This document shows, piece by piece, positions 802-15,661 of a stretch of DNA of 35,160 bases (the stretch's first letter is position 1; each line of letters opens with the position of its first letter). Under the pieces are notes generated by a model that searched no databases, was not told the origin of the DNA, and saw only the letters and a list, made by a program, of their open reading frames with translations. The DNA is taken from assembly GCA_964593965.1 (NCBI GenBank), contig CAZQKU010000001.1, positions 1 to 35,160 on the forward strand, written 5' to 3'. This DNA is from an uncultured Candidatus Saccharibacteria bacterium. GTDB taxonomy: Bacteria; Patescibacteriota; Minisyncoccia; Phycocordibacterales; PALSA-1337. A program made the position numbers and the translations under genes.

Positions 802-806
802 AAAAC

Positions 807-1846: not shown

Positions 1847-1893
1847 CGTCGATTGGTTGCGGATAATTATAAAAAAAGACTATACTATGATGC

Positions 1894-2319
1894 ATGATTA
1901 AAAAATTGTTCTTGCCGTGTGTGGTGATTGTCGGCTTTATTGGTTTTGTTATCTACGGGCGGATGAAGGCGGCGCCGAGTACGGCGATAGTTCCACGTAT
2001 TTCGGTTTCTCCTACACTAGCTACGACAACCACTGGCCAATATAAAGACGGTACCTATACCGGCAGTGTGGCCGATGCGTATTATGGCAATGTTCAGGTG
2101 CAGGCGATAGTACAGAATGGCAACATCGCCGATGTTCAGTTTCTTCAATACCCGAGTGACAACGGCAATAGTGCGAATATCAGCCAGCGTTCTATGCCGC
2201 TTCTCAAAGCCGAAGCCATCAGTGCCCAAAGCGCCACTGTTGATATCATCTCCGGCGCTACCCAGACAAGTCAGGCTTTTCAACAGTCACTGACGGCGGC
2301 ATTGAATCAGGCTTCTTAG
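1894..2319 (+). CDS. FMN-binding domain protein, membrane anchored (predicted ApbE substrate)
   Basis: 141 aa. An N-terminal hydrophobic anchor (LFLPCVVIVGFIGFVIY) is followed by an FMN_bind-type domain carrying the flavinylation motif DIISGATQTS. TATACT at 1881-1886 lies 7 nt before the ATG. Confidence 0.85.
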   Translation: MIKKLFLPCVVIVGFIGFVIYGRMKAAPSTAIVPRISVSPTLATTTTGQYKDGTYTGSVADAYYGNVQVQAIVQNGNIADVQFLQYPSDNGNSANISQRSMPLLKAEAISAQSATVDIISGATQTSQAFQQSLTAALNQAS

Positions 2320-2363
2320 ATTTTAGACTAAAGACTAATGTCGCGGCAGAATAAAAAATAAAG

Positions 2364-3224
2364 ATGCGTGAAACAAAAATCATCATGGGTATGCCGGTGA
2401 CGGTGGAGATTGTTGAGAACGCCGACACTGCCGGCGTTCTTGTTGATTTTTCGAGCCTCATGCGCGAAGTCTTCGACTACTTTACCTATGTTGATGAAAA
2501 GTTCAGCACATATAAAAGTACCAGCGAAATCAGTGCTATCAATGCCGGCAAATTGGTGCTGGCTGATTACAGCGACGACATGAAAGAAATTTTTATGCTG
2601 GCGGAAAAGACAAAAAGAGAGACGGATGGATATTTTGATATTGTCAATCAGGATGGAAAATACGATCCGTCGGGTATCGTCAAAGGTTGGGCGATTTGGA
2701 ATGCGGGAAAAATTCTCCGGCGGCGCGGGGTGGAAAACTTTCTTGTTGATGCCGGTGGCGATGTACAAACAGCCGGTTTGAAAAGTGGCGATAAAAATAG
2801 CTCTGGCAAAAATAGTATAGGCGAAAAATGGAGCATCGGCATCGCCGATCCGTTTGCTAAAAATTATGGTGGTACAGTTATGACGGGTGCGCCGAGCAAA
2901 GTAGTCAACGTGATCCGTGTTAGTGGGGAAGGTGTAGCCACATCGGGAACGGCCATTCGTGGTCAGCACATTTATAATCCACATAAACGTACGTTCGACC
3001 AGAAAGATAGCCACGGCGAGACAGGTGACGGTATTTATGACATTGTCAGTCTGACCGTTATCGGTTCCAATATATATGAAGCTGATCGTTTTGCTACAGC
3101 CGCTTTTGCCATGGGGAGGCGTGGTATCGAGTTCATCGAAAATGTAGAAGGTCTCGAGGGTTACATGATTGATAAAGATGGCATGGCTATCATGACCAGC
3201 GGTTTTAAGAAATATGTTGTGTAG
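2364..3224 (+). CDS. apbE: FAD:protein FMN transferase (ApbE family)
   Basis: 286 aa with ApbE-like blocks: FSTYKSTSEISAIN, DPSGIVKGWA, LVDAGGDVQ, VATSGTA and ADRFATAAFAMG. No N-terminal signal peptide or lipobox is visible. Confidence 0.88.
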   Translation: MRETKIIMGMPVTVEIVENADTAGVLVDFSSLMREVFDYFTYVDEKFSTYKSTSEISAINAGKLVLADYSDDMKEIFMLAEKTKRETDGYFDIVNQDGKYDPSGIVKGWAIWNAGKILRRRGVENFLVDAGGDVQTAGLKSGDKNSSGKNSIGEKWSIGIADPFAKNYGGTVMTGAPSKVVNVIRVSGEGVATSGTAIRGQHIYNPHKRTFDQKDSHGETGDGIYDIVSLTVIGSNIYEADRFATAAFAMGRRGIEFIENVEGLEGYMIDKDGMAIMTSGFKKYVV

Positions 3225-3279
3225 AAGTGTTGTATAATTTGGTACATCTTATATTTTTGCCCATTCACTCATTTCCTCT

Positions 3280-5013
3280 ATGTCCTTCATCGACACAATC
3301 CTCAATAAGATCACCATGTACCGTTTGGCGTTGTACTATTTGATATTTCTCGTTCTGGCCGCCGCAGTGCTCGGTATGTTCGGGCATGTGTCATACGGAC
3401 CGGTGGCTATTCTTTTTTCGGCATTCTATATCACCCTCGTCTGCCTCGTGGTTAATGCCGTCTTCGCCTATTTCTTCGAGGCACCGGCCAATCCCGAATC
3501 GGTCTACATCACCGCTCTCATTCTTACCCTCATCATCGCGCCGATCCATTCGGCTACTGACATCCTATTTTTCGCTGTAGCAACGTGGGCTTCGATCTGG
3601 GCAATGGCTTCGAAGTACATTCTCGCCATCGGCAAAAAGCATGTCTTCAATCCCGCCGCTATCGCTGTGGTCATCACCGCTTTTTCGGTCGGTTTGTCGG
3701 CGAATTGGTGGGTGGGCACGGTCTGGATGTTGCCGTTCGTCGCGGTTGGTGGCTTGCTCGTGGTGCGGAAACTTCAACGTTTCAAAATGATGGGGAGTTT
3801 CGTGGCGGCCGCCCTCGTCGTCGTGATCATTCATCATCCGGCGGTGGTGACGATATGGAAAGCTCTCGCCGAGACGCCACTTATTTTCTTCGCTTGTATC
3901 ATGCTGACGGAGCCATTGACCGCGCCTTCGACGCAGAAAATACGTATCGTCTACGGTGTTTTGGTCGGCTTGCTTTTTGCGCCATTTGTGCATATCGGTT
4001 CCATATATTCGACGCCAGAGCTGGCGCTCGTTGTCGGCAACGTTTTTGCTTTTATGGTCGTAAGTCCGAAGAAAAAGTTCGTTTTGAAACTGCGCGAGAA
4101 AAAGCAAGTGGCGGCGGGGACGTTCGAGTTTTGGTTCGAGGAAGCGGGAAAAGGCGGCGCGGGGAAAGATGGAACTCGCGGCAAACTTACCAATTTTACA
4201 TTCCGACCGGGTCAATATCTCGAGTGGACGCTTGAGCCGAAATTGGGTCTCCCGGAAAAATCGGACGGTTCATCGACGGCTATTTCATTTTCATCATTTA
4301 TCGCCGGTTTCCGCCGCATCTTTTTTAATATTTTTTCAGCGGACAATCGCGGTATTCGTCACTATTTTACTATTGCTTCATCGCCAGGAGAAGCGGCAGA
4401 AAAGGGCATTGCCATCGGAGTCAAATTTTATGGACATGTTGCGGGCGGTAGCGGACAGTCGAGTACTTTTAAAAAAGTTCTCATGGCTATGAAGCCCGGC
4501 GATACGATCGTGGCGTCGGGCATGGCGGGGGATTTTTTTCTGCCGCCGAAAGTTGTCACATCGATCAAGGGAAAAGATGTACCGACGAGCGATCAGCGCA
4601 TCGTCATGATGGCCGGTGGTATTGGTATTACGCCGTTTCGCAGTATGATTGCCGATTTGCTTGACAGGAATGAGCAGAGACCCATCCGTATTATTTATTC
4701 CAATAAGACTGCCGCCGACATCGCCTACAAAGACATCTTCGACGAGGCGAAGAAACGCCTCGGCGTGAAGACTGTCTATACCCTCACCGATATCAACACG
4801 GATACCAACCCGAATGCCATTCCTGCCGGCTGGCGCGGGCGGCGCGGTTTTGTGGACGCAAAAATGATCGAGGAAGAAATACCCAGCTATATGAACTGCC
4901 TATTCTATCTCTCCGGCCCGCGGGCTATGGTGACAGCGTACGAAAATATTCTCTTTGACATGGGAGTGCCGGGATCGCAGATCAAGAAGGACTTTTTCCC
5001 GGGGTTTGTATAG
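3280..5013 (+). CDS. Fusion protein: RnfD/NqrB-like polytopic membrane domain plus ferredoxin-NADP reductase-like FAD/NAD(P)-binding module
   Basis: 577 aa. The N-terminal ~250 aa are multi-TM and carry FFACIMLTEPLTAPS (compare FMxTDPVTxP of RnfD/NqrB). The C-terminal part has RHYFTIASSP (the RxYS FAD motif), MMAGGIGITPFRSM (the GGxGxxP NAD(P) motif) and YLSGPRAMV. Confidence 0.85.
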   Translation: MSFIDTILNKITMYRLALYYLIFLVLAAAVLGMFGHVSYGPVAILFSAFYITLVCLVVNAVFAYFFEAPANPESVYITALILTLIIAPIHSATDILFFAVATWASIWAMASKYILAIGKKHVFNPAAIAVVITAFSVGLSANWWVGTVWMLPFVAVGGLLVVRKLQRFKMMGSFVAAALVVVIIHHPAVVTIWKALAETPLIFFACIMLTEPLTAPSTQKIRIVYGVLVGLLFAPFVHIGSIYSTPELALVVGNVFAFMVVSPKKKFVLKLREKKQVAAGTFEFWFEEAGKGGAGKDGTRGKLTNFTFRPGQYLEWTLEPKLGLPEKSDGSSTAISFSSFIAGFRRIFFNIFSADNRGIRHYFTIASSPGEAAEKGIAIGVKFYGHVAGGSGQSSTFKKVLMAMKPGDTIVASGMAGDFFLPPKVVTSIKGKDVPTSDQRIVMMAGGIGITPFRSMIADLLDRNEQRPIRIIYSNKTAADIAYKDIFDEAKKRLGVKTVYTLTDINTDTNPNAIPAGWRGRRGFVDAKMIEEEIPSYMNCLFYLSGPRAMVTAYENILFDMGVPGSQIKKDFFPGFV

Positions 5014-5047
5014 GTTTATTATGTTTAATTAAGGAGGATGGCCTGTG

Positions 5048-5066
5048 TTGTGCCCGGGGTGGGACT
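5048..5066 (-). repeat. Orphan copy of the tRNA-Leu(UAA) 3' end (att-like direct repeat)
   Basis: Identical to 12454-12472 (16 nt of the tRNA 3' end plus 3 nt downstream). The sequence diverges immediately beyond it, so no complete tRNA is present here. Confidence 0.6.
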
Positions 5067-5195
5067 TGGTCACGGATAATTTTCTCGCCGTCGCTCGAAA
5101 ATTTCCGCGACCCCGCCTCGCGGTCTCGTCTGTTGACTCGACAACGCTCCGGCTTTCTCGTTCCACACGCGAAGCGCGAGGGCGCTTCGCTCCCA

Positions 5196-5430
5196 GCACA
5201 AACTCACTTTGTTCGTTTGTGCCGATTCCTGAACGAAGTTCGAACCTTTTTCGCCGCGAATCCGGAACAATGAGGTGTCGCTTCGCGACGCTTCCTTAGT
5301 GTGGGGTCGTCCCATTGCGCCTTCGCTCCGCTCGGCGCTGGGAGAAGGGCGGACGGCAGCCGGGGGTGTGGGGGAAGGTCGCCGTCCGCCCTTCCTCTTC
5401 GTTTTCGCGCGCCGCCCTGCAGGTTTTTTC
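5196..5430 (+). repeat. GC-rich hairpin-dense repeat, copy A (inverted relative to copy B)
   Basis: The reverse complement of 10523-10758 aligns over ~215 nt with a handful of substitutions and two 1-nt indels. It contains a perfect 14-bp stem (5344-5357 / 5381-5394). GC-rich structured sequence continues outward across 5067-5195 and as a 9-bp hairpin at 5462-5488. Confidence 0.8.
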
Positions 5431-5553
5431 GGGCGGGGGCGGAACCAATTCAGAAATCCTCGTGGCTCATTTCCACCATATGAGCCACAATAATATTTAG
5501 CGCATGAATTGATACTTTGCATCGCGCGGAGAACCCACGCGAGCGATATGTCC

Positions 5554-6144
5554 TTACTCCACCAATTTCACTAGGTAACGCGTTGTAATCGCGCTTGAGA
5601 TATGCAGAAGTTTTTGGACGTCTTCGTTGGCAAAGATTTTATTTTTTTGTGCGAACAGAATGATCTTGTCGAGCTTTTTCTGCTTGTTGGACTGAATCTT
5701 AGCTTGAGCTTTGATGAGCAAGGCGTGAATGAATCCGGCTTGATATTGTTGCGCCGACGATTGCGCCTGTGGCACTGGCGAAGTCAGTGGCGTCGGCGCG
5801 GACGGCGCAGACTGTGGTTCAGATTGATTTGGAACCGGTTGAACTTCTTCAGAAGCTGGCGGATTATTGTTTACAGGAGTTGGCTGGTCTTCAACCGGCG
5901 TTTCTGGCTCATTTGGAGCAGAAATTGGCTCATCTGGCACCTCGCTTTTTGGCTGATTTACCCCTTGATTTTGATCTTCGACGGAAGTGTTAATAGAAAC
6001 GCTTTTAGGCGATTCTGGGGCCTCTGTGGGCAAATCGGTAGGCGTAGAGCCATCTGACTGGCTAGAAACGTCAGAAATCGGTACTTCATGAGTTTGAGCT
6101 TCTTCTGGAGGCGTAGCTATGTCTTGTGATTGATCATCATCCAT
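5554..6144 (-). CDS. Hypothetical protein: acidic/Pro-rich disordered N-terminus with a C-terminal winged-helix-like domain
   Basis: 196-aa ORF. The low-complexity N-terminal ~130 aa are rich in P/E/Q/S. The C-terminus reads KIILFAQKNKIFANEDVQKLLHISSAITTRYLVKLVE and looks HTH-like. It lies 25 nt downstream of the giant gene on the same strand. Confidence 0.6.
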   Translation of the reverse strand: MDDDQSQDIATPPEEAQTHEVPISDVSSQSDGSTPTDLPTEAPESPKSVSINTSVEDQNQGVNQPKSEVPDEPISAPNEPETPVEDQPTPVNNNPPASEEVQPVPNQSEPQSAPSAPTPLTSPVPQAQSSAQQYQAGFIHALLIKAQAKIQSNKQKKLDKIILFAQKNKIFANEDVQKLLHISSAITTRYLVKLVE

Positions 6145-6168
6145 GAGGAGGAATATTTTACCAGATTT

Positions 6169-9100
6169 TCATTTCATCAGCGCGTTGACCTCATTCATCG
6201 TTGCTACTCCAAAGAATCCAGTCGGGACCGTCAATCCTTGCGGCTCGAGTATCTCTTTCTTGTACGCTTGCTGGAACTTCATTAAAGCGGCTTTCGTTGC
6301 AAGACCGAAATATGTCGTCTCGTGTCCGGGAGAGCCTGCTCCATTCTTGGCGACGATGAAACCTTGAGAATTGAGAAATATCTGCAACTTCTTAACATCG
6401 CTACTGGTCACACCAGATTTTAATGTCCGTAAAAACGACGATCCGGAATTCGACGACGGCGTTTTTACAGAAATAACATTTTGCGTCGGAACATTTTGTG
6501 CTGGAATCGTTATTCCGTATTGATTAGCAACTTGCTGTGCCTGCGTGTAGAAGCCCATCGCCAGAAGATTATTGACTTGGCTTGAGGCACTGCCACCGCT
6601 AGAGCTGTAGCTGGTAGTAACAGCGGGTGGTAGGACTGCGTTTTTGACTGTTACTGTTATTAATGACGATGTAGCGTAATTCCCCGCGTTATCTCGTGCC
6701 ACGGCAACAATGGTATGCAATCCGTCAGAAACTGCTGTTGAATCCCATGTTGTCGTATATGGAGCGACCGTGATTTCTGATCCGATGTTGGTGGTACTAT
6801 CCAACTTGAATTGCACGCCTGCGACAGCTACATCATCGGAAGCTGTCGCGGACAAAGAGACCGCCGAACCGGCAACGGTAGAACCGCCTGAAGGTGATGT
6901 GAGAGCAACCGTCGGAGGTGTGGTATCAGTGGTCGTAAATGGCAGGATTGAGCCCGTGCTCGTTCCGGCCGAGTTCACCGCATATGCGCGGAAGTAGTAG
7001 GTGGTATTGGGTGTGAGGCCTGTAAAACTCTGACTGAATGTCGTTATACCAGTCTGACCGTTCAGGGTTGTAGTCGCAATGACCGTGGCGAGAGTCGGTG
7101 ATGTGCCGTATGCAAATCCAGATTGCGTAGCATCGGCTCCGCCAGTCGAAGTAATCGAAGCGTTCAGAGTTGCAGTCGAAGTCGAGATCGGCGAAGCGGC
7201 GACAGTTGAAATCGACGGTGCCACTATCGGGTCGCCATACATACCGAAGTCAGAAAAGTTAGAAGTACTGCAAGTTACCGTTTTGGCTCCTGTATTCACC
7301 GAGCAACCAGTGAGCGCGGTCCATGAACTGCCATCATATCTGTAGATCTTCAATGAAGACTCCAGAATGCCTGTAATATCACCAGAGACATAGCTCATCG
7401 TCACGGTCAGTGCTTGGCTGAATGTTGGTAGAGTCGTAGTGGCATCGGTCAAAGCTTTCAAATTGAAAATCTTATTGCCCACGAGCGACTTACTTGTCGG
7501 CGCGCCGGCTGAAGCAATGAAAGCTGTCGGGTCAAGACTTTTGATCTGGAAATTGGCGAAAGTGGATGTGCTGGTGAAAGATGTTGGAACAGTTATAGAT
7601 AGAGTATCCAGATTTAATGGTCCACCGGAAGCCGTAGTGAGCATGCTGGATGTCGAAGTAGATACAGCCGCATTGCCGGTACAACCGGTGGTAATGAAAG
7701 TTGAATCAGTAGAGCTGGCCGTACCATTTTTGAGATATACAAGATCGTTTGTGATGCTTAGGCGATTACTACGGACACGATAGTGGTACAAGACACAAGA
7801 TTGCAAGCCAGACACAGTAATCGAGTGACCGGTAATTTTTCGAGTGGTGGAAGAATTATCCTGTTCAGCGGTAGAGGTGGAATAATTGGAGGTGAGATCA
7901 AAATCGACGATGCTGGAAGACGAGGCATTCGATGTCCAACCGATGATGGCAGAAGATGCCGTCGTAGAAGTAGAAATATTACTTATTAAGGTGAGGGGAT
8001 GAATTAAAGCGTCAATTGCAGGCCATATACGATTTGCAATTACCGTTTCTCCAACAGTGTTCTGGTGCGTACCATCAGGATTATAGTAAGTGGTATTAGA
8101 GTTCTGTCCCGCTTGCCCCATAACAGGGTCATTGCCCATGTCTACTAACGCTTGGGCATATGTAGTATAGTTAGCGCGTAACGAAGCATTTGTAGCTTGC
8201 CTAACAACTTCGCTTGGATTCTCGGTATTGGGCAATACGGTAACGGCTATATTCTCCCAACCTACAGCTTGTCGAGCACTATAATAAGTGGGCAAATTAG
8301 TATATGCTGGTTCATTTGTTCCCTCCCATCCAACAAGTATGTTATTGACTAATGTTGAGTCAAAAAGCGGATCAACTTTGGTTGGCGCGTCGACTATCAA
8401 TTGGCTTGTCGTTTTACCAGAGACCGCCTGATTTACATATGGCACCTTAACAGTTTCTAAGCCATCTATGATGTCAGAGAAAGGAATAGCTCCTAACGCG
8501 CCGCCGGCAGAGATGCTATTACCATCGTATACTACTCTGTTCGTAAGTGGTAATGGCCACGTCCATGGAATATTGAACCTTGAAGCAAGATATGCATTTA
8601 CATTGTTAATCTCATTGAAAGAAAGAGCTCTATTATATATATAAACGGCTTGTATATAACCATTAAATAAAAAACTGCCATCTCCTCCTATATTCCAAAC
8701 AGATGTTGTGTCAAAGTTTGGGAGACCCGCACCCTCAGTTGCAAAAGTATTAAATGCAGATGGAGATCCATCAGAAGGAAGATAGCCATTCAGATAAATT
8801 AACTGGGTGCCGCTTGTACTGATGTTTGGATCGGGAGTGAATGAATCCTCATAAACATTTCCGTGTAATAAACTATTTGTGGTCGAAGAAAAATTGTAAT
8901 TGCCGTCGCCATAATTTTTGACCTGTGAACTACTTGTAACAAGCCACCATGCTCGATTTGAAGAAGATCCCTTATGCAACAAATTAGCATATGTAACACC
9001 AGATGAAGTTTGTTTATACACAATAAAGACGGTTGATGAACCAGTGTTGCCAAAATTAAGAACACTGGGATTACCTAAAGTTAGAAGCGTATTGGCACTA

Positions 9101-9384
9101 GCTCCAAATTGTACGCCAGAATATCCGCCGTCTTTATTTAAAGTTAATAACGGCTGGTTAGTAGCATTCGTATTCGTCGCATCATAACCATTCCCCGACT
9201 TATCAGCCCACAAAGCGATCTTATCGCTCTCTAATGTCGCAGGCTGTGTCTTGGCAGTATCCTTGTAGAAAGAATTTGGTTGAGAGGCATCCAACCATAG
9301 TTGAAGACCCGGTATATCGGTTGGAGCGGAAATAGCAAACGCTTTTTGAGCTGACGATCCGAAAAATATAGCAAAAACCGCCAA
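6169..9384 (-). CDS. Giant secreted surface protein: LamG-like, SGNH/GDSL hydrolase, FN3-like repeats, Ig-like domain and a C-terminal peptidoglycan-binding domain
   Basis: 1071 aa. LamG-like segment: LQLWLDAS...NGYIQAVYIYNRALSFNEINNV. SGNH blocks: VVYDGNSISAGG and DGTHQNTVG. FN3 segment: GFAYGTSP...TGLTPNTTYYFRAYAVNSAG. Ig-like segment: TPPTVALTSP...ASDDVAVAGVQFKLD. PG_binding_1-like segment: VKKLQIFLNSQGF...YFGLATKAALMKFQ. The only in-frame start is TTG at 9384, which truncates an in-frame signal-peptide n-region. See the (CT)n finding for the alternative ATG at 9457. Confidence 0.85.
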   Translation of the reverse strand: MAVFAIFFGSSAQKAFAISAPTDIPGLQLWLDASQPNSFYKDTAKTQPATLESDKIALWADKSGNGYDATNTNATNQPLLTLNKDGGYSGVQFGASANTLLTLGNPSVLNFGNTGSSTVFIVYKQTSSGVTYANLLHKGSSSNRAWWLVTSSSQVKNYGDGNYNFSSTTNSLLHGNVYEDSFTPDPNISTSGTQLIYLNGYLPSDGSPSAFNTFATEGAGLPNFDTTSVWNIGGDGSFLFNGYIQAVYIYNRALSFNEINNVNAYLASRFNIPWTWPLPLTNRVVYDGNSISAGGALGAIPFSDIIDGLETVKVPYVNQAVSGKTTSQLIVDAPTKVDPLFDSTLVNNILVGWEGTNEPAYTNLPTYYSARQAVGWENIAVTVLPNTENPSEVVRQATNASLRANYTTYAQALVDMGNDPVMGQAGQNSNTTYYNPDGTHQNTVGETVIANRIWPAIDALIHPLTLISNISTSTTASSAIIGWTSNASSSSIVDFDLTSNYSTSTAEQDNSSTTRKITGHSITVSGLQSCVLYHYRVRSNRLSITNDLVYLKNGTASSTDSTFITTGCTGNAAVSTSTSSMLTTASGGPLNLDTLSITVPTSFTSTSTFANFQIKSLDPTAFIASAGAPTSKSLVGNKIFNLKALTDATTTLPTFSQALTVTMSYVSGDITGILESSLKIYRYDGSSWTALTGCSVNTGAKTVTCSTSNFSDFGMYGDPIVAPSISTVAASPISTSTATLNASITSTGGADATQSGFAYGTSPTLATVIATTTLNGQTGITTFSQSFTGLTPNTTYYFRAYAVNSAGTSTGSILPFTTTDTTPPTVALTSPSGGSTVAGSAVSLSATASDDVAVAGVQFKLDSTTNIGSEITVAPYTTTWDSTAVSDGLHTIVAVARDNAGNYATSSLITVTVKNAVLPPAVTTSYSSSGGSASSQVNNLLAMGFYTQAQQVANQYGITIPAQNVPTQNVISVKTPSSNSGSSFLRTLKSGVTSSDVKKLQIFLNSQGFIVAKNGAGSPGHETTYFGLATKAALMKFQQAYKKEILEPQGLTVPTGFFGVATMNEVNALMK

Positions 9385-9431
9385 AATGACGATGACACAT
9401 TTTGCCTTCCAATTTTTAGAGAGAGCTTCTA

Positions 9432-9446
9432 CTCTCTCTCTCTCTC
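9432..9446. repeat. (CT)7.5 dinucleotide microsatellite in the 5' region of the giant surface-protein gene
   Basis: CTCTCTCTCTCTCTC is read directly at 9432-9446. It lies between an out-of-frame ATG (9457-9455, minus strand) and the open frame of the 1071-aa ORF. Confidence 0.9.
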
Positions 9447-9603
9447 GTTAATCGCATAATTAGTTTTTAATACGGCCACGGTTAATAATTTAGTGGACTT
9501 TTAATGACTGCTCCAAATCGTACTTATATACTCTTGTGAGATTGTGCTAATTATAAACCATCTATGCATTTTATGGAAATCAAAGTATATGCACCGTTTT
9601 TGC

Positions 9604-9633
9604 TTGACTTGCAGTAACCTTTAGGTATATACT
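9604..9633 (+). promoter_or_regulatory. Sigma-70-like promoter with no ORF downstream
   Basis: TTGACT at 9604-9609, then either N16 to TATATA (9626-9631) or N18 to TATACT (9628-9633). About 50 nt further on come two hairpins and a T-run (9648-9689). Confidence 0.4.
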
Positions 9634-9665
9634 CTTACTATCGGATCGGGGTGTCCCCGGTCGGT

Positions 9666-9689
9666 AAAAGGTCCCGCAAGGGACTTTTT
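9666..9689 (-). terminator. Bidirectional hairpin terminator downstream of the DUF3800 gene
   Basis: AAAAGGTCCC-GCAA-GGGACTTTTT sits directly after the stop codon at 9694-9696. A/T runs on both sides allow it to function on either strand. Confidence 0.55.
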
Positions 9690-9693
9690 ACGT

Positions 9694-10476
9694 TTATGGA
9701 AAGACTTTCAATCCGTAGCCGTCCACTTTTCCGTTGCTTCCTTTTCTCAATTTACTCTCTATTATCTGGAACGGTATGTAAGGTTCTTCCGAATTCAAAA
9801 CATGCCGAGCGATCGGATACGCGCACAGGTCGGCGATTTGCAGACCTATATCGTTATCTTTTTTCAATTTCATATTGAATTCGATGATGCGCTGCTTGAA
9901 GCGATCGCTACCGACATGGTATGTCCCCTTATCGATCACGCTGTTGTAGTGCGCGAGCAATTGAGTGTCTTCTTTCTTGCCTCTTTTTTCTATGTTGATC
10001 GACACGGTCGAAGCCGAGGTCTTTTCATCAGTGCAGAAGACCAATCGTTCGAGAATATATGAAAGACAGATCGTGTAAGGATTCTGAGCGATCTTTCCGT
10101 ATTTCTCGATATGCTTCTTCTTGTCGATCGCGACGGCTATGACCGTAAACCGTGCATCTTTTATTATCGCGTTGAGCTTTTCATAAAATTTTTTCTTCAG
10201 GTCGAGGTCGAATAGTATCTGGAATGCGCCGTCACATTTCCTGATATCTCTAGAATGCAGGATGACTTCGGTAGTCTTGAAAAACTCCATCTTGAGATCA
10301 TTGATCCTGCTGACCATGTCGTTATACTCAGTATCCTCAAAAAGACAGCCTGCAAGCAGAAATATCGGAAAGTTTTCATCGACAAAACCCAGACCGTGAT
10401 CACCGGTTTCATCAAGAAAGAAATTATACTTTTTCGGTTGAGTGGGCATACGATGCGTGGTTATTCTTTCTGTCAT
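9694..10476 (-). CDS. DUF3800 domain protein
   Basis: 260 aa. The N-terminal YNFFLDETGDHG motif is characteristic of DUF3800. TATGAT lies 5 nt upstream of the ATG. Confidence 0.75.
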   Translation of the reverse strand: MTERITTHRMPTQPKKYNFFLDETGDHGLGFVDENFPIFLLAGCLFEDTEYNDMVSRINDLKMEFFKTTEVILHSRDIRKCDGAFQILFDLDLKKKFYEKLNAIIKDARFTVIAVAIDKKKHIEKYGKIAQNPYTICLSYILERLVFCTDEKTSASTVSINIEKRGKKEDTQLLAHYNSVIDKGTYHVGSDRFKQRIIEFNMKLKKDNDIGLQIADLCAYPIARHVLNSEEPYIPFQIIESKLRKGSNGKVDGYGLKVFP

Positions 10477-10522
10477 ATTTTATCATAAAATTTCAAAAAG
10501 AAATCTCTCCTCTTATTATCCT

Positions 10523-10758
10523 GAAAAAACCTGCAGGGCGTCGCGCGAAAACGAAGAGGAAGGGCGGACGGCGACCTCCCCCACACCCCCGGCCGCCGTC
10601 CGCCCTTCACGACGCGCCGAGCGGAGCGAAGGCGCAATGGGACGACCCCACACAAGGAAGCGTCGCGAAGCGACACCTCATTGTTCCAGATTCGCGGCGA
10701 AAAAGGTTCGAACTTCGTTCAGGAATCGGCACAAACTCACTTCGTTCGTTTTTTGTGC
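10523..10758 (-). repeat. GC-rich hairpin-dense repeat, copy B
   Basis: Inverted copy of 5196-5430. The same 14-bp stem is present (10559-10572 / 10595-10608). The differences between copies fall mostly in loops and spacers. Confidence 0.8.
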
Positions 10759-10845
10759 GCCTTGTGGGACGATATTGGAACGGAAATAACCAAATAAAAA
10801 GTACAACCTTCCAGATATTGAGGGGGTTGATCTTCCTTTTATCCG

Positions 10846-11022
10846 TTAATTGCTAGCCTCTTTTTTCATGGTAACAACCAAATCCTTGACCATTCCGTTA
10901 ATTTTTCCGAGATACATTTCCATCTCCTGCATAATCTTAAGCTTTTCAGCTGGTGAAGTACTTGCTTTCTTCAATTTCTCAATACTCTCTTTTATTTGTT
11001 CTTTTGGTATTTTATTTATCAT
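10846..11022 (-). CDS. Small 58-aa helical protein (below the ORF-track cutoff)
   Basis: Manual translation: MINKIPKEQIKESIEKLKKASTSPAEKLKIMQEMEMYLGKINGMVKDLVVTMKKEASN. It starts 20 nt downstream of the 124-aa gene on the same strand. No SD sequence is present. Confidence 0.35.
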   Translation of the reverse strand: MINKIPKEQIKESIEKLKKASTSPAEKLKIMQEMEMYLGKINGMVKDLVVTMKKEASN

Positions 11023-11041
11023 ATTTTTATAATTTATTTAA

Positions 11042-11416
11042 TTACCCAAGAATATCAATTCTATCTGCCACAAAAGCCGCAACTTTTGCAAGAGAAGTAA
11101 CGGCCGTCATTCCGATGGTAACGACGAGTGCTTCTTTGGTATTTATCCCCTCCATATATGCATCTGCCGCGACGAGACCACCCATAAGAGCGGGGAACGA
11201 CCAAAGAATTGCATCCTCAGTAATAAACGTTTTTACACCTTCGATCCCCTTTTTTACCGCCGCACTCCATCCATTCTTTGGCTCTTTAGTAGCCAATTGA
11301 TCAAATTGTTCAAGATTCGTTTGTAACTCAGCCGCAGTAGTATCAAGTTTTTCTTGTTGAGCACCAATCTCTCCCTCAATTCCTGAATTTTCAGGGTTAG
11401 ATTCTATATTAGACAT
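11042..11416 (-). CDS. Hypothetical protein (124 aa) with a hydrophobic C-terminal half
   Basis: ORF with a coiled/acidic N-terminus and the hydrophobic segments ILWSFPALMGGLVAADAY and LVVTIGMTAVTSLAKVAAFV. TAATAT lies 7 nt before the ATG. Confidence 0.6.
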   Translation of the reverse strand: MSNIESNPENSGIEGEIGAQQEKLDTTAAELQTNLEQFDQLATKEPKNGWSAAVKKGIEGVKTFITEDAILWSFPALMGGLVAADAYMEGINTKEALVVTIGMTAVTSLAKVAAFVADRIDILG

Positions 11417-11499
11417 ATTTTTTATATTACATTAATAATAAAACGTAGACACATATTATTATAACGTTTTTTCGTTAAGTAGCTATGTTTTTAGTACCC

Positions 11500-11528
11500 T
11501 TGACATAATAACCTATTTGGTATACACT
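11500..11528 (+). promoter_or_regulatory. Sigma-70-like promoter for the 129-aa membrane protein gene
   Basis: TTGACA at 11500-11505, then N15 to TGgTATACA (extended -10, 11518-11526). The downstream leader ends in a GGAGG SD at 11593-11597. Confidence 0.5.
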
Positions 11529-11603
11529 TATGGCAGATAAGGTCTGGTTTTACGTAGCCTTAGTTCCTGAACAATCAAACATTCAACAATTGGAGGAATT
11601 CAT

Positions 11604-11993
11604 ATGTTTATCAAACGCCTTGTAAATTCCGTAATCACAATTCCTGTTCTGTTCGTCATCTCCGCAGTCTTGATCGTCGCTTCTGCTTACCTCGGACACT
11701 ACCTTGACTATTTCGAAGCGACGCACCAGCCGATAGGTGTCGGAGCGGTTGCGTTTCTCATGGGAGCCGCGATGCTGGACTGTCTGATGTTTCTCGGGGC
11801 TGTCTTCATCAGTACGGGTGCTGTCGCCGTTCTCATCACAGGCCACGGCCTATTGTGGCGGCGAGTGGACGAGCACGACTTTCTGCAAAATCCCGACGGA
11901 TCGGTTTTCCGAAGATTCGAGAAGGCAGACCTCATTTGGAGATGGAGTCCAATCTTCAACGGGCGGAAATTGATGGGATACAGCGATTTTTGA
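11604..11993 (+). CDS. Small membrane protein (129 aa)
   Basis: Two or three hydrophobic helices (ITIPVLFVISAVLIVASAYL, GVGAVAFLMGAAMLDCLMFLGAVFI). A GGAGG SD sits 6-7 nt before the ATG, which is one of the few SD-led genes in this window. Confidence 0.65.
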   Translation: MFIKRLVNSVITIPVLFVISAVLIVASAYLGHYLDYFEATHQPIGVGAVAFLMGAAMLDCLMFLGAVFISTGAVAVLITGHGLLWRRVDEHDFLQNPDGSVFRRFEKADLIWRWSPIFNGRKLMGYSDF

Positions 11994-12011
11994 TGAGGAT
12001 TGCGATAGACG

Positions 12012-12050
12012 AAATCCACTTTCAGCGATGAGGGTGGATTTTTATTTTTT
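12012..12050 (+). terminator. Rho-independent terminator
   Basis: AAATCCAC (12012-12019) pairs with GTGGATTT (12034-12041) and is followed by TTTATTTTTT. Confidence 0.45.
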
Positions 12051-12456
12051 AAACATGGACGTACTGTTCGATACAGAGTTAATTTGCTTCTAAAATAGAG
12101 TGTCTTTGACTAAGCCGTACTGCTGCTCTATAGCAGGGTTATAAAAATTGCTTCTAATTTCTTCTAACAAAGATAGTCAGAAATTGGCTTCATAGTAAGT
12201 ACTTCGAGATTCACCAACAGGATGTAAGAGCTTCATATCAACCGTTGTTACTTTCGAACAGATTAAAAAAGTCTTTCTAGACGGCAGTACAGCCTCCGCA
12301 CGGTATCTCATCGTCGATGATGAATAAAAGCGCAGAATGTTGGAAAAGATACTTTCGAACGCTTCCATTACCAACAAAAATATAGCTCAACACAGCTTTA
12401 AAAGTCCATATTCAATGCTCGCGAAAGTGTCGAAAAATGCTGATTTTTCTACTTTG

Positions 12457-12541
12457 TGCCCGGGGTGGGACTCGAACCCACATGATCTTTCGATCGACAA
12501 ATTTTAAGTCTGTTGCGTCTAGCCGATTTCGCCACCCGGGC
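12457..12541 (-). tRNA. tRNA-Leu (anticodon UAA), class II with a long variable arm
   Basis: Folded by hand. Acceptor stem GCCCGGG/CCCGGGC plus discriminator A. Anticodon loop CTTAAAA. Variable arm GATC-GAAA-GATC. T arm GTGGG-TTCGAGT-CCCAC. No encoded CCA. Confidence 0.9.
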
Positions 12542-12585
12542 GTTTCTTTATTTTTTACATCATTGAGCTGTCCGAATTTTTCGGG

Positions 12586-12659
12586 AGGCGTAGGCCGGGA
12601 TCGAACCGGCGTATAACAGTTTTGCAGACTGTCGCGTTTACCAACTTCGCCACTACGCC
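12586..12659 (-). tRNA. tRNA-Cys (anticodon GCA)
   Basis: Folded by hand. Acceptor stem GGCGTAG/CTACGCC. Anticodon stem-loop ACAGT-CTGCAAA-ACTGT. T arm GCCGG-TTCGATC-CCGGC. Confidence 0.9.
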
Positions 12660-12702
12660 ATTGGGGCATCGCATTGCGGCTATATACCGCACTGTCACTA
12701 TT

Positions 12703-13047
12703 CTAGCTGTTCTTTGAGATTTCGTCTATGTTCTGGCGGTTTTTCTCGCCGGCATCCAGAGTAAAATCAAAGAAGGGAATACGGTGCATGCGACGGCACT
12801 TCTGTGTGAAAAATTCTCGAAATTCGGCGCGCTTGCGTTTTAAGAAGTCGTGTGCAGTCTTTTCTTTATCTTGAGGCAAAACGGTAAAATAAATGTCGGC
12901 ACGAGCACCACGGTCGCCGATCTCCACTCTGGTGACGGTAATGAGCGACAGGCCGTTCGACTCAAGCTGAATGAATTCGCCGGCTGTTTCCCGGATGAGA
13001 TCCTTCAGTCTGCCGTCTTTTATTTCTGGATTGATTATGTCAGGCAT
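12703..13047 (-). CDS. rbfA: Ribosome-binding factor A
   Basis: 114 aa. RLKDLIRETAGEFIQLESNGLSLITVTRVEIGDRGARADIYFTVLP matches the RbfA KH-like core. It lies immediately downstream of infB, which is the conserved gene order. Confidence 0.85.
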   Translation of the reverse strand: MPDIINPEIKDGRLKDLIRETAGEFIQLESNGLSLITVTRVEIGDRGARADIYFTVLPQDKEKTAHDFLKRKRAEFREFFTQKCRRMHRIPFFDFTLDAGEKNRQNIDEISKNS

Positions 13048-13080
13048 TTTTTGGTGATTTTATTTTTTTTACGCTATGTC

Positions 13081-14625
13081 TTATGCGACTTTTTCCACGA
13101 TTTTAAAACCCTCAATTTTATCGCCGACGGCGATTTCTATTTTTGATTCAATAAGAGTGCCGAAATCATACCCTTCACGCACGCTCGATGCTTTGACTTT
13201 CTGCTGTTGCAATTCGCGGATCTTGCCGCGGCCGATGTCGGTATCGCGTCGCAGAATTTTTACTTCGGAACCGACGGTTATCTCGCCCTCCTGGACTTTG
13301 CCGCCGATGATTTGTTTGTCTTTATTCTTGCTGAAAATGGCCAGAATTTTTGCTTTACCAGTGGACTGCTCTTCGTATTCTTTCGGCACTTTTTCGGCGA
13401 CGGCGGCCTTGACGAATTTTATCAGATCATAAATGACACTGAATTCTTTGAGATTGACGGTAGTGGTCGGCCGTTCGAGGATGCTTTTGGCTTTTACATC
13501 CGGCTTGGCGTTGAAGGCCACAATGACGATGGAAGGATTGCTCTGGGCGGTCTTGACATCGCTTTCGGAGACGACACCGATACCTTCGATGATGATGCGG
13601 ATGGCCACTTTGTCGTTCTTAATTTTTGCCAGCTCATGCGTGATGCCGTCAAGACTGCCGACGGTATCGGCTTTGACGATGAGAGGAAGGATGATGGCGT
13701 CGGCCGCATCGCTATTTAATTTTATTTTTTGCAATCGCGGATCAGGTCTCCATTCGTCGGCCATTTTTTCTGCCACTTTTTTATCCGTAACAATAGCGAA
13801 AGGCGAACCGACCGGTGGTAATTTGTTCCAACCGACGACGGAGACCGGACTGGAAAAGGTAGCGTAGGTGAGCGACGTGCCGGTAAAATCTTCAAGAATG
13901 CGTACTGGAGCGAAGCTGTCTTCGGCCACGACATACATGCCCGTTTCGATATGACCGTCTTGTATCACCAACGTCGCACTGATGCCTTTTTTATTATCAA
14001 GATGGGCTTCGACGATGGCACCCGTGCCCAACTTTTTACTATCGGCTTTGAGATCCGCCACTTCGGCGGTGAGCATAATAAGATCAAGAAGTTCGGGTAC
14101 GCCGACACCGGTCACAGCGGAAATCGGCACAAAAGAGACATCACCGCCGTAACCTTCAAGATATATTTCATTTTCAGCCAGATTAATTTTCGTCCGTTCA
14201 ATGTTTGCTGACGGCTTATCTATTTTATTGATGGCCACGATGTAGGGGATTTTTTCGTCTTTAATGCAGGCGAGCGCCTCCAAAGTCTGCGGCTTGACGC
14301 CGTCTTCAGCCGAGACAACAAGAATGGCAATGTCGGCCACGTGCGCTCCGCGCTCGCGAATGTCACAGAAAGCTTCATGCCCCGGGGTGTCAATGAAGGT
14401 TATTTTTTTCGGTGCACTTCCCGCAGTAGTGTGTTCGACTTCGTAAGCTCCGAGATGTTGGGTGATGCCGCCGGCTTCGCCCGCCACGACATTGGTCTTG
14501 CGAATATAATCGAGCAAAGTTGACTTGCCATGGTCAATATGCCCCATGACCACGACGACGGGTGGACGTATAGAGAGAGTCGCAACGGGCGATTTTTTGA
14601 TTGTTTTTTTATTTTCAGTGGCCAT
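13081..14625 (-). CDS. infB: Translation initiation factor IF-2 (short form lacking the long N-terminal region)
   Basis: 514 aa. GTPase motifs [13 protein letters not shown] and NKID are present, followed by the C-terminal IF-2 domains. Confidence 0.95.
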
Positions 14626-14892
14626 AGATATGGGTAAATATGAGAAAGCCCAGCATATCAGAAAAAACGAAGGTTGGCAAACGACGACGTACCGTACGTA
14701 GCGTTTTTATTTTGCTTCGCTGGAGCATATTGATTTTGCGCACTTTTTCTACATGAGAATGAAAGCAAAAATTCATTAAAAATATGGCTAACTTTCGTCG
14801 GTCGAAACCTATCTATTCTCATTTAGAAAAAGTGCAGAGAATCAACTTAATTAGGTCTGACATTTTCTTGCTTTCTTGCCGAAATTTGTTGG

Positions 14893-14920
14893 TAATAAAA
14901 AGAAAAACCCCGCGAGGGGT
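14893..14920 (-). terminator. Short hairpin terminator (ACCCC-loop-GGGGT) with a long T-run on the minus strand
   Basis: The minus strand reads ACCCCTCGCGGGGTTTTTCTTTTTATTA. It sits just downstream of two short overlapping minus-strand ORFs (14948-15122). Confidence 0.4.
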
Positions 14921-15281
14921 ATTTCTTGTTGCACATTCTACACACACCTACGCCTCTGTCGGTGGTGTTGGTGGAGGCGTCTGCGGCTGTGGAGGAGGAA
15001 CGGGTTTTGCTTGCTTTGCCATACCTGTAAAGGCGGGTGGATTAGCTCCCGCAATGCAAAAGTATATACCCGTATATAGTTGCGGCAACAGATGTCAGCG
15101 TTAGCTCACTGACTTGACTCATCGTCAAAAGATACACCGGAATAATGAAGCCCAGACAAACTCTTTTGGTGTGGTGTAATACGTCAGATTATTACGCCAT
15201 ACTTGTCTCTCAATACAAAATAGTGTAACGTATTTTGTAGATAAGAAACTAAACCAAATTAACGCTTGCCGAAAGGATAGT

Positions 15282-15614: not shown

Positions 15615-15623
15615 GAAAAGTCA

Positions 15624-15657
15624 CGGCTCTTATGCATACGCACGAGGGCCGTTTTTT
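15624..15657 (+). terminator. Possible terminator between convergent genes
   Basis: An imperfect stem, CGGCTC ... GAGGGCCG, followed by TTTTTT at 15652-15657. Confidence 0.35.
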
Positions 15658-15661
15658 CTAT

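What the first reader, a model, noticed from the sequence alone, without database searches (positions are those of the whole stretch)
5048..12472. 19-nt direct repeat of the tRNA-Leu 3' end delimits a 7.4-kb integrase-less island
TTGTGCCCGGGGTGGGACT occurs exactly twice, at 5048-5066 and 12454-12472. The right copy is the last 16 nt of the intact tRNA-Leu(UAA) (T-stem 3' strand, acceptor 3' strand and discriminator) plus 3 nt downstream. The left copy is an orphan fragment with no remainder of a tRNA. For a window this size, the chance expectation for any exact 19-mer pair is roughly N^2/4^19, well below 0.01. The coincidence with a tRNA 3' end gives the classic attL/attR geometry of integrase-mediated insertion. 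The enclosed DNA holds only accessory-type genes: a wHTH protein, a giant surface protein, DUF3800, small membrane proteins and AT-rich non-coding stretches. It sits between a redox operon and a tRNA-rbfA-infB housekeeping block. No integrase, excisionase or relaxase ORF is visible. The element is therefore either decayed, mobilised in trans, or of a type not yet described for this lineage.
Basis: partly seen in the sequence, partly recalled or inferred. Interest (0 to 1): 0.7.

Follow-up and report, generated by a model that had tools for sequence, protein, structure and literature searches.

The report
tRNA-Leu tail repeat: trailer unit, not att scar
The 19-base repeat is real, but its left copy is the built-in end of a conserved, tRNA-derived "trailer" element found behind tRNA genes in related bacteria, so it does not by itself prove that the 7.4 kb of accessory genes between the copies arrived as one integrase-driven island.

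Summary
TTGTGCCCGGGGTGGGACT occurs exactly twice, at 5048-5066 and 12454-12472. The right copy is the 3' end of tRNA-Leu(UAA), which lies on the minus strand. No integrase is present.

The attL/attR reading is only partly supported. The left copy is not a bare orphan. It is the 3' tail of a ~175-nt structured unit (5048-5222, minus strand).

- A relative (L025) has the homologous unit, tail included, directly behind an identical tRNA-Leu, with no island.
- A distant Patescibacteria genome (L030) has tandem arrays of such units behind three different tRNAs. In 7 of its 9 copies the tail matches the preceding tRNA.
- A covariance model built only from L030 finds both L025's unit and the window's unit.

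The 7.2 kb between the tRNA and its unit is lineage-specific accessory DNA with host-like composition. It has at least two parts. One is a 5.5-kb segment bounded by direct copies of a 27-30-nt hairpin and by inverted copies of "X", a 215-nt element. X proves to be a highly conserved upstream element of DUF3800 genes.

The closest analogues are the E. coli tyrT/rtT repeats and decayed att-flanked islands (CIMEs). I rate this moderately interesting, as a new variant of a known kind.

The parts
12456..12541 (-). tRNA-Leu(UAA). Its last 16 nt plus 3 downstream nt form the right 19-mer (12454-12472).
   Evidence: ARAGORN; Rfam tRNA, 55.2 bits; sequence.
12584..12659 (-). tRNA-Cys(GCA). It belongs to the conserved infB-rbfA-tRNA-Cys-tRNA-Leu block.
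   Evidence: The same order is seen in 15+ relatives.
5048..5066 (-). Left 19-mer. It is the 3' 'tail' of trailer unit A.
5048..5222 (-). Trailer unit A (tRNA-derived structured unit). Read on the minus strand it has four parts. A leader hairpin spans 5222-5196 (GCAC-AAA-CGAACAAAGTGAG-TTT-GTGC). GGAG plus hairpin P1 spans 5189-5170 (8 bp). An anti-T segment spans 5169-5157. The tail spans 5066-5048.
   Evidence: Homologous to L025 2947-3102. P1 covaries across 9 units. It is the best hit in the whole window for a model built only from L030 units (5215-5122, E = 2.7e-4).
5196..5222 (.). Left copy of the hairpin, on the + strand GCACAAACTCACTTTGTTCGTTTGTGC. It is a direct repeat of 10729-10758.
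10729..10758 (.). Right copy of the hairpin, on the + strand GCACAAACTCACTTCGTTCGTTTTTTGTGC.
10755..10771 (-). Possible degenerate tail (tail'), CGTCCCACAAGGCGCAC. It matches the tRNA tail at 12 of 17 positions and lies immediately before the right hairpin, as a tail does in L025.
   Evidence: Sequence. Weak on its own.
5218..5439 (+). X_left, a solo copy of the conserved DUF3800-associated upstream element X. It lies head-to-head with unit A and has no DUF3800 gene behind it.
   Evidence: It is 95.5% identical to L049 501-721. The three X copies (X_left, X_right and L049's X) are equidistant from one another.
10520..10733 (-). X_right, element X immediately upstream of the DUF3800 gene.
   Evidence: It is colinear with L049's X-DUF3800 cassette.
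9694..10476 (-). DUF3800 gene (260 aa; called as 251 aa in other assemblies).
   Evidence: Pfam PF12686, E = 3e-15. Homologs of 73-88% identity occur across Patescibacteria in unrelated contexts.
9600..9693 (-). Conserved non-coding element just 3' of the DUF3800 gene. Its core (9643-9689) forms two hairpins and is nearly invariant in six loci.
   Evidence: No Rfam match.
6169..9384 (-). 1071-aa surface protein (Big_7, fn3, Pur_ac_phosph_N, C-terminal PG_binding_1).
   Evidence: No homolog in any held relative locus.
5554..6144 (-). 196-aa protein with a low-complexity N-terminal half. It has no family match, so the 'wHTH' label is unverified.
10772..12453 (.). tRNA-proximal segment, AT-rich. 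It holds small ORFs at 10846-11022(-), 11042-11416(-) and 11604-11993(+) and a 460-nt non-coding stretch. Its proteins are ORFans.
   Evidence: The 124-aa protein has no homolog other than itself among 5.8 billion proteins. A terminator-like site lies at 12011-12042.
3280..5013 (+). Left flank: NQR2_RnfD-NAD_binding_1 fusion oxidoreductase. Its stop codon lies 34 nt from the left 19-mer.
   Evidence: Relatives have unrelated genes downstream.
12703..14625 (-). Right flank: rbfA (12703-13047) and infB (13081-14625).
   Evidence: Synteny with relatives runs up to the tRNA-Leu 3' end.

Best explanation
The left 19-mer is the inherited 3' tail of a tRNA-derived 'trailer unit' (window 5048-5222, minus strand, same orientation as tRNA-Leu). 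Units of this family lie behind tRNA genes in several Patescibacteria. Each unit has four parts. First comes a hairpin whose stem begins with the preceding ...GCAC(A) and whose 13-nt loop is CGAACGAAGUGAG. Next is GGAG plus a covarying hairpin (P1). Third is a segment complementary to the T-loop and T-stem 3' strand of a tRNA, usually the neighbouring one. Last is a copy of the final 17-22 nt of that tRNA. The 19-nt repeat therefore belongs to the tRNA-plus-trailer architecture. It most likely arose by duplication of, and unequal recombination in, the tRNA 3' region, as in the E. coli tyrT/rtT repeats. It predates the DNA now lying between the copies (inferred).

That 7.2 kb is lineage-specific accessory DNA that accumulated inside the trailer in at least two pieces. 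One piece is an ORFan small-protein segment (12453-10772) ending at a degenerate tail. The other is a 5.5-kb segment (5223-10728) that splits the unit's hairpin, so that a hairpin copy sits at each end. This segment carries a DUF3800 cassette (X, the gene and a 3' element), a giant surface protein, a 196-aa protein and a second, inverted solo X.

Shown: the homology, position, covariation and cargo-free existence of the unit; the composite anatomy; and the absence of a recombinase. Inferred: the order of events, and that insertion happened by recombination at the hairpin or tail sequences through an enzyme not encoded here.
For: - L025 has a tRNA-Leu identical to the window's, followed within ~135 nt by a second copy of the tail. 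The DNA between is 79% identical to window 5154-5223 on the minus strand, with fully compensatory changes in P1.
- L030 (infB only 53% identical) has 2-3 tandem units behind tRNA-Leu(UAA), tRNA-Lys(CUU) and tRNA-Leu(UAG). Seven of the nine tails match the tRNA in front, and the unit bodies are homologous.
- P1 has 10 pairs, and 7 of them show changes on both sides with the pair kept.
- The anti-T segments pair best with the cognate tRNA: -21.0, -19.5 and -24.4 kcal/mol on the diagonal, against -10 to -14 off it.
- A covariance model built only from L030 units finds L025's unit at full length (E = 2.9e-11). With filters off, its best hit in the whole window is 5215-5122 on the minus strand (E = 2.7e-4).
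- The loop motif CGAACGAAGTGAG follows tRNA tails in the window (twice), L025 and L030. It also occurs in a unit flanked by duplicated tRNA-Leu 5' ends in L037.
- No integrase was found. Composition is host-like.
- The interior is composite. Hairpin copies lie at 5196-5222 and 10729-10758. X is a DUF3800-linked element also present in L049 and, in degenerate form, in L051. The two window copies are no closer to each other than to L049's copy.
- The junctions are assembled identically in independent assemblies.
Against: - The two closest relatives by infB (L032/L035, 88-92% identical) have a single tail copy, no unit A and no second copy within 9 kb. An empty attB would look like this.
- The repeat starts in the T-loop and ends 3 nt past the discriminator. 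This is the identity block expected for a tyrosine integrase crossing over in the T-loop (from memory of Williams 2002).
- The 7 nt after the left tail (AACACAG) resemble the start of the trailer after tRNA-Leu in L032 (AACGCAG). This fits retention of the original host flank at an attR.
- The window unit's own anti-T segment is degenerate and is not specific for its tail.
- Two L030 units are chimeric, with a UAG-type anti-T and a Lys tail.
- The units themselves could be decayed att-flanked mini-elements.
- Units were found in only 4 of about 20 tRNA-Leu loci examined.
Confidence: 0.55

Rival explanations
1. This is a classical tRNA-integrated island that has lost its integrase, or is mobilised in trans (a CIME-type element). 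A tyrosine integrase recombined an attP carrying the tRNA-Leu 3' end with the tRNA. Unit A would then be the conserved attR-proximal arm of the element family. L025's 135-nt unit and the L030 arrays would be deletion remnants or mini-elements left at the same kind of site.
For: The repeat is exact, 19 nt long, and spans the T-loop to the 3' end plus 3 nt. The enclosed DNA is absent from all relatives and breaks synteny exactly at the tRNA end. L032/L035 look like an empty site with a single copy. The 7 nt after the left tail resemble L032's trailer start. Decay to att-flanked elements without integrase, and tandem accretion, are documented for other bacteria (PMC5704250).
Against: No integrase or remnant was found. 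Composition is host-like. No relative has the FNR gene next to tRNA-Leu. P1 keeps its pairing through compensatory changes, which points to a single-stranded (RNA or ssDNA) structure and not to dsDNA arm sites. In L030, homologous units with three different cognate tails and anti-T segments sit behind three tRNAs in 2-3 tandem copies. That would need three attP variants of one mini-element. The interior is composite, and its X repeats reflect conservation, not element ends.
Confidence: 0.27
2. The 5.5-kb core (5223-10728) is a non-autonomous transposon. It would have ~210-nt terminal inverted repeats (X) and would have inserted into the hairpin loop with a 13-nt target duplication (CTCACTTYGTTCG). 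The outer 19-mer pair would be unrelated to its mobility.
For: The inverted repeats are ~95% identical. Both junctions carry the same-orientation hairpin/loop sequence.
Against: No transposase is present. In L049 and L051, X occurs as a single copy upstream of DUF3800, not as a transposon end. The two window copies are as far from each other as from L049's copy, so their similarity reflects purifying selection. No X copy was found in the viral or genome collections by exact 21-mers.
Confidence: 0.08
3. The repeat is an artefact, either a chimeric assembly joining two loci at a shared tRNA-like 19-mer or a chance repeat.
For: Logan contigs from SRR6946416 break at window 5094, 5382 and 11901.
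Against: A JGI contig spans the entire region. Two ENA contigs from another sample cover 1-8722 and 8772-16249 at 99.99-100% identity. Every junction is therefore assembled independently. None of 100 shuffles gave even one match to the 19-mer.
Confidence: 0.02

Closest known systems
E. coli tyrT operon 178-bp repeats / rtT RNA (Rfam RtT)
   Same: Repeated units lie directly downstream of a tRNA gene and in the same orientation. Each unit ends in a copy of the tRNA's 3'-terminal ~19 nt. The units are tandem (as in L030). They need no recombinase and are thought to be released by processing of the tRNA transcript. The existence and operon context of rtT are given in bioRxiv 10.1101/2024.07.17.603846. 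The 19-nt detail is from memory of Rossi et al. 1981.
   Different: There is no sequence or Rfam similarity. The Patescibacteria units carry a conserved hairpin loop, a covarying P1 and an anti-T segment. They occur behind several different tRNAs with matching tails. In the window, the unit is separated from its tRNA by 7.2 kb of cargo.
tRNA-integrated genomic islands and their integrase-less derivatives (CIMEs)
   Same: There is a direct repeat of the tRNA 3' end at both borders. The genes between are accessory and lineage-specific. No integrase or transfer genes are present (definition in PMC5704250).
   Different: The distal repeat is embedded in a conserved structured unit that exists without cargo. 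Composition is host-like. No matching empty site with the same flanks was found. No integrase-bearing relative was found.
DUF3800-associated RNA motifs (DUF3800-I to -XI, Weinberg et al. 2017, PMC5737381)
   Same: Conserved, apparently structured non-coding elements lie next to DUF3800 genes, some on the upstream side and some on the downstream side. Their function is unknown. X and the 3' element fit that description.
   Different: Neither X nor the 3' element matches any Rfam 15 family at E<=5. X shares the GAG-hairpin-GTGTGGG core and the TTGTGCC start with the tRNA-Leu trailer units, and it sits behind a tRNA or a tRNA tail in two contexts. That link has not been described, to my knowledge.
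MITE-like or TIR-bounded non-autonomous transposons
   Same: Long inverted repeats are flanked by a short direct duplication.
   Different: There is no transposase and no other copies used as ends. The 'TIR' is a gene-linked conserved element.

Membership tests
tRNA-integrated genomic island (tyrosine-integrase att-flanked element) | Direct repeat identical to the 3' part of the target tRNA at both borders | tested here: met
   Exact 19-mer at 5048-5066 and 12454-12472.
tRNA-integrated genomic island (tyrosine-integrase att-flanked element) | Integrase gene (or recognisable remnant) inside, usually next to the tRNA | tested here: not met
   Pfam, PHROGs and PADLOC on all ORFs. Six-frame Pfam scan of 11990-12460.
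tRNA-integrated genomic island (tyrosine-integrase att-flanked element) | Empty site in relatives: one repeat copy with the same two flanks joined | tested here: inconclusive
   L032/L035 have a single copy, but with different downstream genes. Relatives of the FNR gene have no tRNA downstream. L025 lacks the cargo but keeps both repeat copies.
tRNA-integrated genomic island (tyrosine-integrase att-flanked element) | Composition distinct from the host | tested here: not met
   Tetranucleotide distance is within the range of the flanks (22% of null windows >= observed). GC is 0.450 against 0.469 for the flanks.
tRNA-integrated genomic island (tyrosine-integrase att-flanked element) | Excision or circular junctions in read data | not testable with these tools
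   No read-level data were available.
tRNA-trailer repeats of the tyrT/rtT type | Unit ends in a copy of the 3'-terminal ~17-22 nt of the upstream tRNA and has the same orientation | tested here: met
   Window unit A, L025, and 7 of 9 L030 units.
tRNA-trailer repeats of the tyrT/rtT type | Unit lies immediately downstream of the tRNA, often in tandem | tested here: inconclusive
   Met in L025 (single unit) and L030 (tandem arrays). In the window, the unit lies 7.2 kb away from its tRNA.
tRNA-trailer repeats of the tyrT/rtT type | Sequence or structure match to Rfam RtT | tested here: not met
   No Rfam hit other than tRNAs, at gathering score or at E<=5.
tRNA-trailer repeats of the tyrT/rtT type | Transcribed with the tRNA and released by processing | not testable with these tools
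   No transcript data were available.
DUF3800-associated RNA motif | Conserved non-coding element consistently adjacent to DUF3800 genes | tested here: met
   X lies upstream in the window and L049, and in degenerate form in L051. The 3' element is present in 6 of 6 loci.
DUF3800-associated RNA motif | Match to a described motif (DUF3800-I to -XI) in Rfam | tested here: not met
   No Rfam 15 match at E<=5 or E<=1.
Functional second tRNA gene at the left repeat | Cloverleaf detected by ARAGORN or the Rfam tRNA model | tested here: not met
   The T-loop and T-stem 5' strand are absent upstream of the left tail.
TIR transposon | Transposase, and the same ends at other insertion sites | tested here: not met
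   No transposase. X elsewhere is a single gene-linked copy. No exact 21-mer hits in viral or genome collections.

The most novel reading that the evidence does not exclude
The tail-bearing units may be a previously undescribed class of tRNA-templated elements. Their anti-acceptor and anti-T segments would act as guides to tRNA 3' ends, and the conserved hairpin (loop CGAACGAAGUGAG) would be a recombination or processing site. Under this reading, DUF3800 RNase-H-like proteins, with their X and 3' RNAs (X shares the unit core), would be the trans-acting partners. Together they would form an integrase-free route by which accessory DNA is seeded behind tRNA genes in Patescibacteria. This would also give the long-unexplained DUF3800 RNA motifs a function.
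Probability: 0.1. Interest if true: 0.8.

Novelty: new variant of a known kind. Interest (0 to 1): 0.5.

Why it matters
A direct repeat of a tRNA 3' end is routinely taken as proof of integrase-mediated insertion, and island-finding tools use it as a boundary. In this Patescibacteria lineage such repeats are produced by a conserved tRNA-trailer architecture and exist without any cargo. Island calls based only on the repeat would therefore be wrong or mis-bounded.

The unit family itself has no Rfam counterpart. It has a conserved loop, a covarying hairpin, an anti-T segment that matches the neighbouring tRNA in most copies, and a tRNA tail. It may bear on tRNA 3' processing in organisms with reduced RNA-processing repertoires.

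The resemblance between the units and the highly conserved element upstream of DUF3800 genes gives a concrete, testable lead for the DUF3800-associated RNAs, whose function has been open since 2017.

Tried and rejected
1. Second tRNA at the left repeat. ARAGORN and Rfam (E<=5) find none.
2. Hidden or decayed integrase. Pfam, PHROGs and PADLOC on all ORFs and six-frame Pfam of 11990-12460 gave nothing. I judged it unnecessary, because the other gaps are filled by X, unit A and the DUF3800 3' element.
3. Phage or plasmid origin. blastn of 5040-5560 against the phage and plasmid collections found no match. PHROGs gave only weak endolysin/holin-like hits, from the PG-binding domain and a small membrane protein.
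4. X as a multicopy element. Exact 21-mers found nothing in the viral or genome collections.
5. X tied to every DUF3800 gene. It is absent in L039-L048 and present only in L049 and, degenerate, in L051-53.
6. Foreign composition. Not seen, except for the GC-rich non-coding stretch 5067-5553.
7. More units in held loci. Model R1 found only its training sequences plus a weak L037 hit.
8. Homologs of the cargo proteins in relatives' loci. None were found. The 124-aa protein is an ORFan.
9. RNAalifold on the nine units recovered P1 but not the long-range tail/anti-T helix, because of alignment register. I therefore tested that pairing unit by unit with duplex energies.
10. Literature. No paper describing such units in Patescibacteria turned up. 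One search failed on term length.
Full report
**1. Observation**

TTGTGCCCGGGGTGGGACT occurs exactly twice on the + strand, at 5048-5066 and 12454-12472. There is no further match with up to three mismatches, and none in 100 dinucleotide shuffles. tRNA-Leu(UAA) lies on the minus strand at 12456/7-12541, and tRNA-Cys(GCA) at 12584-12659.

Read in the tRNA's sense, the repeat is AGT (end of the T-loop), CCCAC (T-stem 3' strand), CCCGGGC (acceptor 3' strand), A (discriminator) and CAA. The tRNA 3' end points into the enclosed DNA.

No tRNA is detectable at the left copy. The enclosed genes are mostly as described: a 1071-aa Big_7/fn3/PG_binding protein, DUF3800 and small proteins. The flanks are an FMN_bind/ApbE/RnfD-NAD_binding operon and tRNA-Cys, rbfA and infB. 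The 'wHTH' label was not confirmed.

The organism is a Patescibacteria (Paceibacteria/Taylorbacteria-like) bacterium. The whole arrangement is reproduced in independent assemblies from other samples.

**2. No recombinase, host-like composition**

No integrase, resolvase or transposase domain appears in any ORF (Pfam, PHROGs, PADLOC). None appears in six frames of the only large unassigned gap next to the tRNA.

The 7.4 kb is not compositionally distinct. Its tetranucleotide distance is 0.180 against 0.140 +/- 0.036 for flank windows of equal size, and 22% of those are at least as deviant. Only the GC-rich non-coding stretch 5067-5553 is an outlier.

**3. Relatives**

Three relatives of the FNR-fusion gene (78-85% identical) lose all similarity at its stop codon. 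They have unrelated genes and no tRNA fragment downstream.

Relatives found through infB keep infB-rbfA-tRNA-Cys-tRNA-Leu. All lose similarity to the window within 1-3 nt of the tRNA-Leu 3' end. Several have tRNA-Lys(CUU) next, which the window lacks. The enclosed DNA is thus lineage-specific accessory DNA, and in that sense the 'island' is real. No relative shows the FNR gene joined to tRNA-Leu.

**4. The left copy is part of a conserved unit**

L025 is a relative with 83% infB identity and a tRNA-Leu identical to the window's. It has a second copy of the tail only ~135 nt after the tRNA. The DNA between is homologous to window 5154-5223 on the minus strand (79% identity). That is the GC-rich DNA just inside the left 19-mer.

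Aligned, both show the same four parts:

- A hairpin whose stem starts with the preceding GCAC(A) and whose loop is CGAAC(A/G)AAGTGAG.
- GGAG plus a hairpin, P1, with fully compensatory differences (CGAAGCGC/GCGCTTCG versus TCAGTCGC/GCGACTGA).
- GTGTGG(A/G)ACGAG, complementary to the T-stem 3' strand.
- The tail.

In the window, this unit A occupies 5222 to 5048 on the minus strand, in the same orientation as the tRNA.

**5. A family of such units**

L030 (the same sequence as MAG contig L014; infB 53% identical) carries 2-3 tandem units of 120-170 nt behind each of three tRNAs: tRNA-Leu(UAA), tRNA-Lys(CUU) and tRNA-Leu(UAG). The bodies are homologous. In seven of the nine copies the tail is that of the tRNA in front. 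The other two are near-identical chimeras with a UAG-type anti-T and a Lys tail.

- P1 is supported by covariation: 10 pairs, 7 of them with changes on both sides.
- The segment after P1 is complementary to the T-loop plus T-stem 3' strand of the cognate tRNA. Duplex energies are -21.0, -19.5 and -24.4 kcal/mol on the diagonal, against -10 to -14 off it.
- The 13-nt loop motif follows tRNA tails in the window (twice), L025 and L030. In L037 it sits in a unit flanked by a duplicated tRNA-Leu 5' end.
- A covariance model built only from L030 units finds L025's unit at full length (E = 2.9e-11). With filters off, its best hit in the whole window is 5215-5122 on the minus strand (E = 2.7e-4). This test is independent of the window sequence.
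- None of these elements matches Rfam.
- Among 53 tRNAs in the held loci, extra tail copies occur only in the window, L025 and L030. Their spacing is 107-287 nt everywhere except the window, where it is 7392 nt, and one distant Lys tail 2 kb away in L030.

**6. Anatomy of the interior**

Read in the tRNA's direction, the region contains, in order:

- tRNA-Leu.
- A 1.7-kb AT-rich segment with ORFan small proteins. The 124-aa protein has no homolog among 5.8 billion proteins.
- A degenerate tail-like 17-mer (10771-10755).
- A hairpin (10758-10729).
- X_right (10733-10520).
- DUF3800, its conserved 3' element, the giant protein and the 196-aa protein.
- X_left in inverted orientation (5439-5218).
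- A hairpin (5222-5196).
- Unit A and its tail.

On the + strand, both junctions of the 5.5-kb core carry the hairpin in the same orientation: GCACAAACTCACTT(T/C)GTTCGTTT(TTT)GTGC. The core thus looks like an insertion that split one hairpin, or like recombination between two hairpin sites.

X is not a transposon end. L049, from another genome, has X, DUF3800 and the 3' element colinear with window 10733-9399 (83% identity). L051 has a degenerate X between a tRNA (tRNA-Ser by my reading of its sequence) and DUF3800. X_left, X_right and L049's X are equidistant from one another: 9, 8 and 4 discriminating sites. The 95% inverted repeat therefore reflects strong conservation, not a recent duplication.

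X shares the TTGTGCC start and the GAG-hairpin-GTGTGGG core with the trailer units.

DUF3800 homologs of 73-88% identity occur across Patescibacteria classes in unrelated contexts, including defence-like neighbourhoods. DUF3800 is described as RNase-H-like and linked to mobile elements and defence (PMC13594972). It is also known to be accompanied by eleven unrelated RNA motifs of unknown function (PMC5737381).

**7. Interpretation**

My best-supported reading (confidence 0.55) is that the 19-nt repeat is a property of the tRNA-plus-trailer architecture. In this it is analogous to the E. coli tyrT/rtT repeats (the 19-nt detail is from memory). The accessory DNA accumulated inside the trailer in at least two steps, by recombination at the hairpin or tail sequences, through an enzyme not encoded here. 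The order of events and the enzyme are inferences.

The main rival (0.27) is a decayed or trans-mobilised integrase island (a CIME; PMC5704250) in which unit A is the attR-proximal arm. Three observations favour it:

- L032/L035 have a single-copy site.
- The extent of the repeat matches a T-loop crossover core.
- The 7 nt after the left tail resemble L032's trailer start.

Four observations count against it:

- No integrase is present.
- P1 covaries in a way that implies a single-stranded structure.
- Homologous units with cognate tails sit behind three different tRNAs.
- The interior is composite.

A TIR-transposon reading of the core (0.08) and an assembly artefact (0.02) are unlikely.

**8. 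Limits**

Units were seen in four genomes. No read or transcript data were available. The window's own anti-T segment is degenerate. The function of the units is unknown.

Noticed in passing
L030 12300-14860 (= L014; Ga0180732_1000093 / JAHIHZ010000028.1): All three tRNAs of a cluster (Leu-UAA, Lys-CUU, Leu-UAG) are followed by 2-3 tandem 120-170-nt units ending in a tRNA tail. A third unit after Leu-UAG ends in a Lys tail and is followed by the same AT-rich repeat region as the Lys array. This suggests recombination between the arrays.
   Followed up: partly
L030 13612-14289: A free-standing 225-aa ORF lies between the tRNA-Lys array and tRNA-Leu(UAG). By eye it has two LAGLIDADG-like motifs (..TTDGNL.., ..IDGDGNI..). 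It was not scanned against Pfam.
   Followed up: no
window 9600-9693 (minus strand; core 9643-9689): A ~50-nt two-hairpin element lies immediately 3' of the DUF3800 stop codon (AAAAAGTCCCTTGCGGGACC..CCGACCGGGGACACCCCGATCC). It is nearly invariant in six loci whose DUF3800 proteins are only 75-88% identical. It has no Rfam match.
   Followed up: partly
window 5218-5439 and 10520-10733; L049 501-721: Element X upstream of DUF3800 is 93-95% identical between different genomes, while the adjacent coding region is ~83% identical. It is GC-rich, holds a long perfect hairpin (GAAGGGCGGACGGC...GCCGTCCGCCCTTC), and has no Rfam match.
   Followed up: partly
L037 1140-1350; L010 ~12480-12560; L026 ~8030-8100: Duplicated 5' 'heads' of tRNA genes lie just upstream of the intact genes (tRNA-Leu in L037, tRNA-Lys in L010 and L026). 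In L037 the duplicated heads flank a unit that contains the CGAACGAAGTGAG motif. tRNA fragments on both sides of tRNA genes seem common in this lineage.
   Followed up: no
window 23489-23519 (and 18974-18982): Three DnaA-box-like 9-mers (TTATCCACA, TTATCCAGA, TTATCCATA) at 11-nt spacing sit on the minus strand in an intergenic region. One more exact box lies at 18974. The window holds 17 matches with <=1 mismatch, against 8.3 +/- 2.8 expected.
   Followed up: no
window 1-109 versus JGI contig upstream (L001 6306-6414): The first 109 nt of the window are repeated at 96% identity about 416 bp further upstream on the longer JGI contig. A strain variant (ENA k141_622606) differs upstream of the sigma-70 gene.
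   Followed up: no
window 25130-26036: Internal direct repeats (207 nt at 88% identity and 120 nt at 78%, with a 555-585-nt period) lie inside the 1257-aa ORF 24126-27899. This is a repeat-domain surface protein.
   Followed up: no
window 11042-11416 (minus strand): The 124-aa protein of the tRNA-proximal segment has no homolog other than itself in the 5.8-billion-protein collection.
   Followed up: yes
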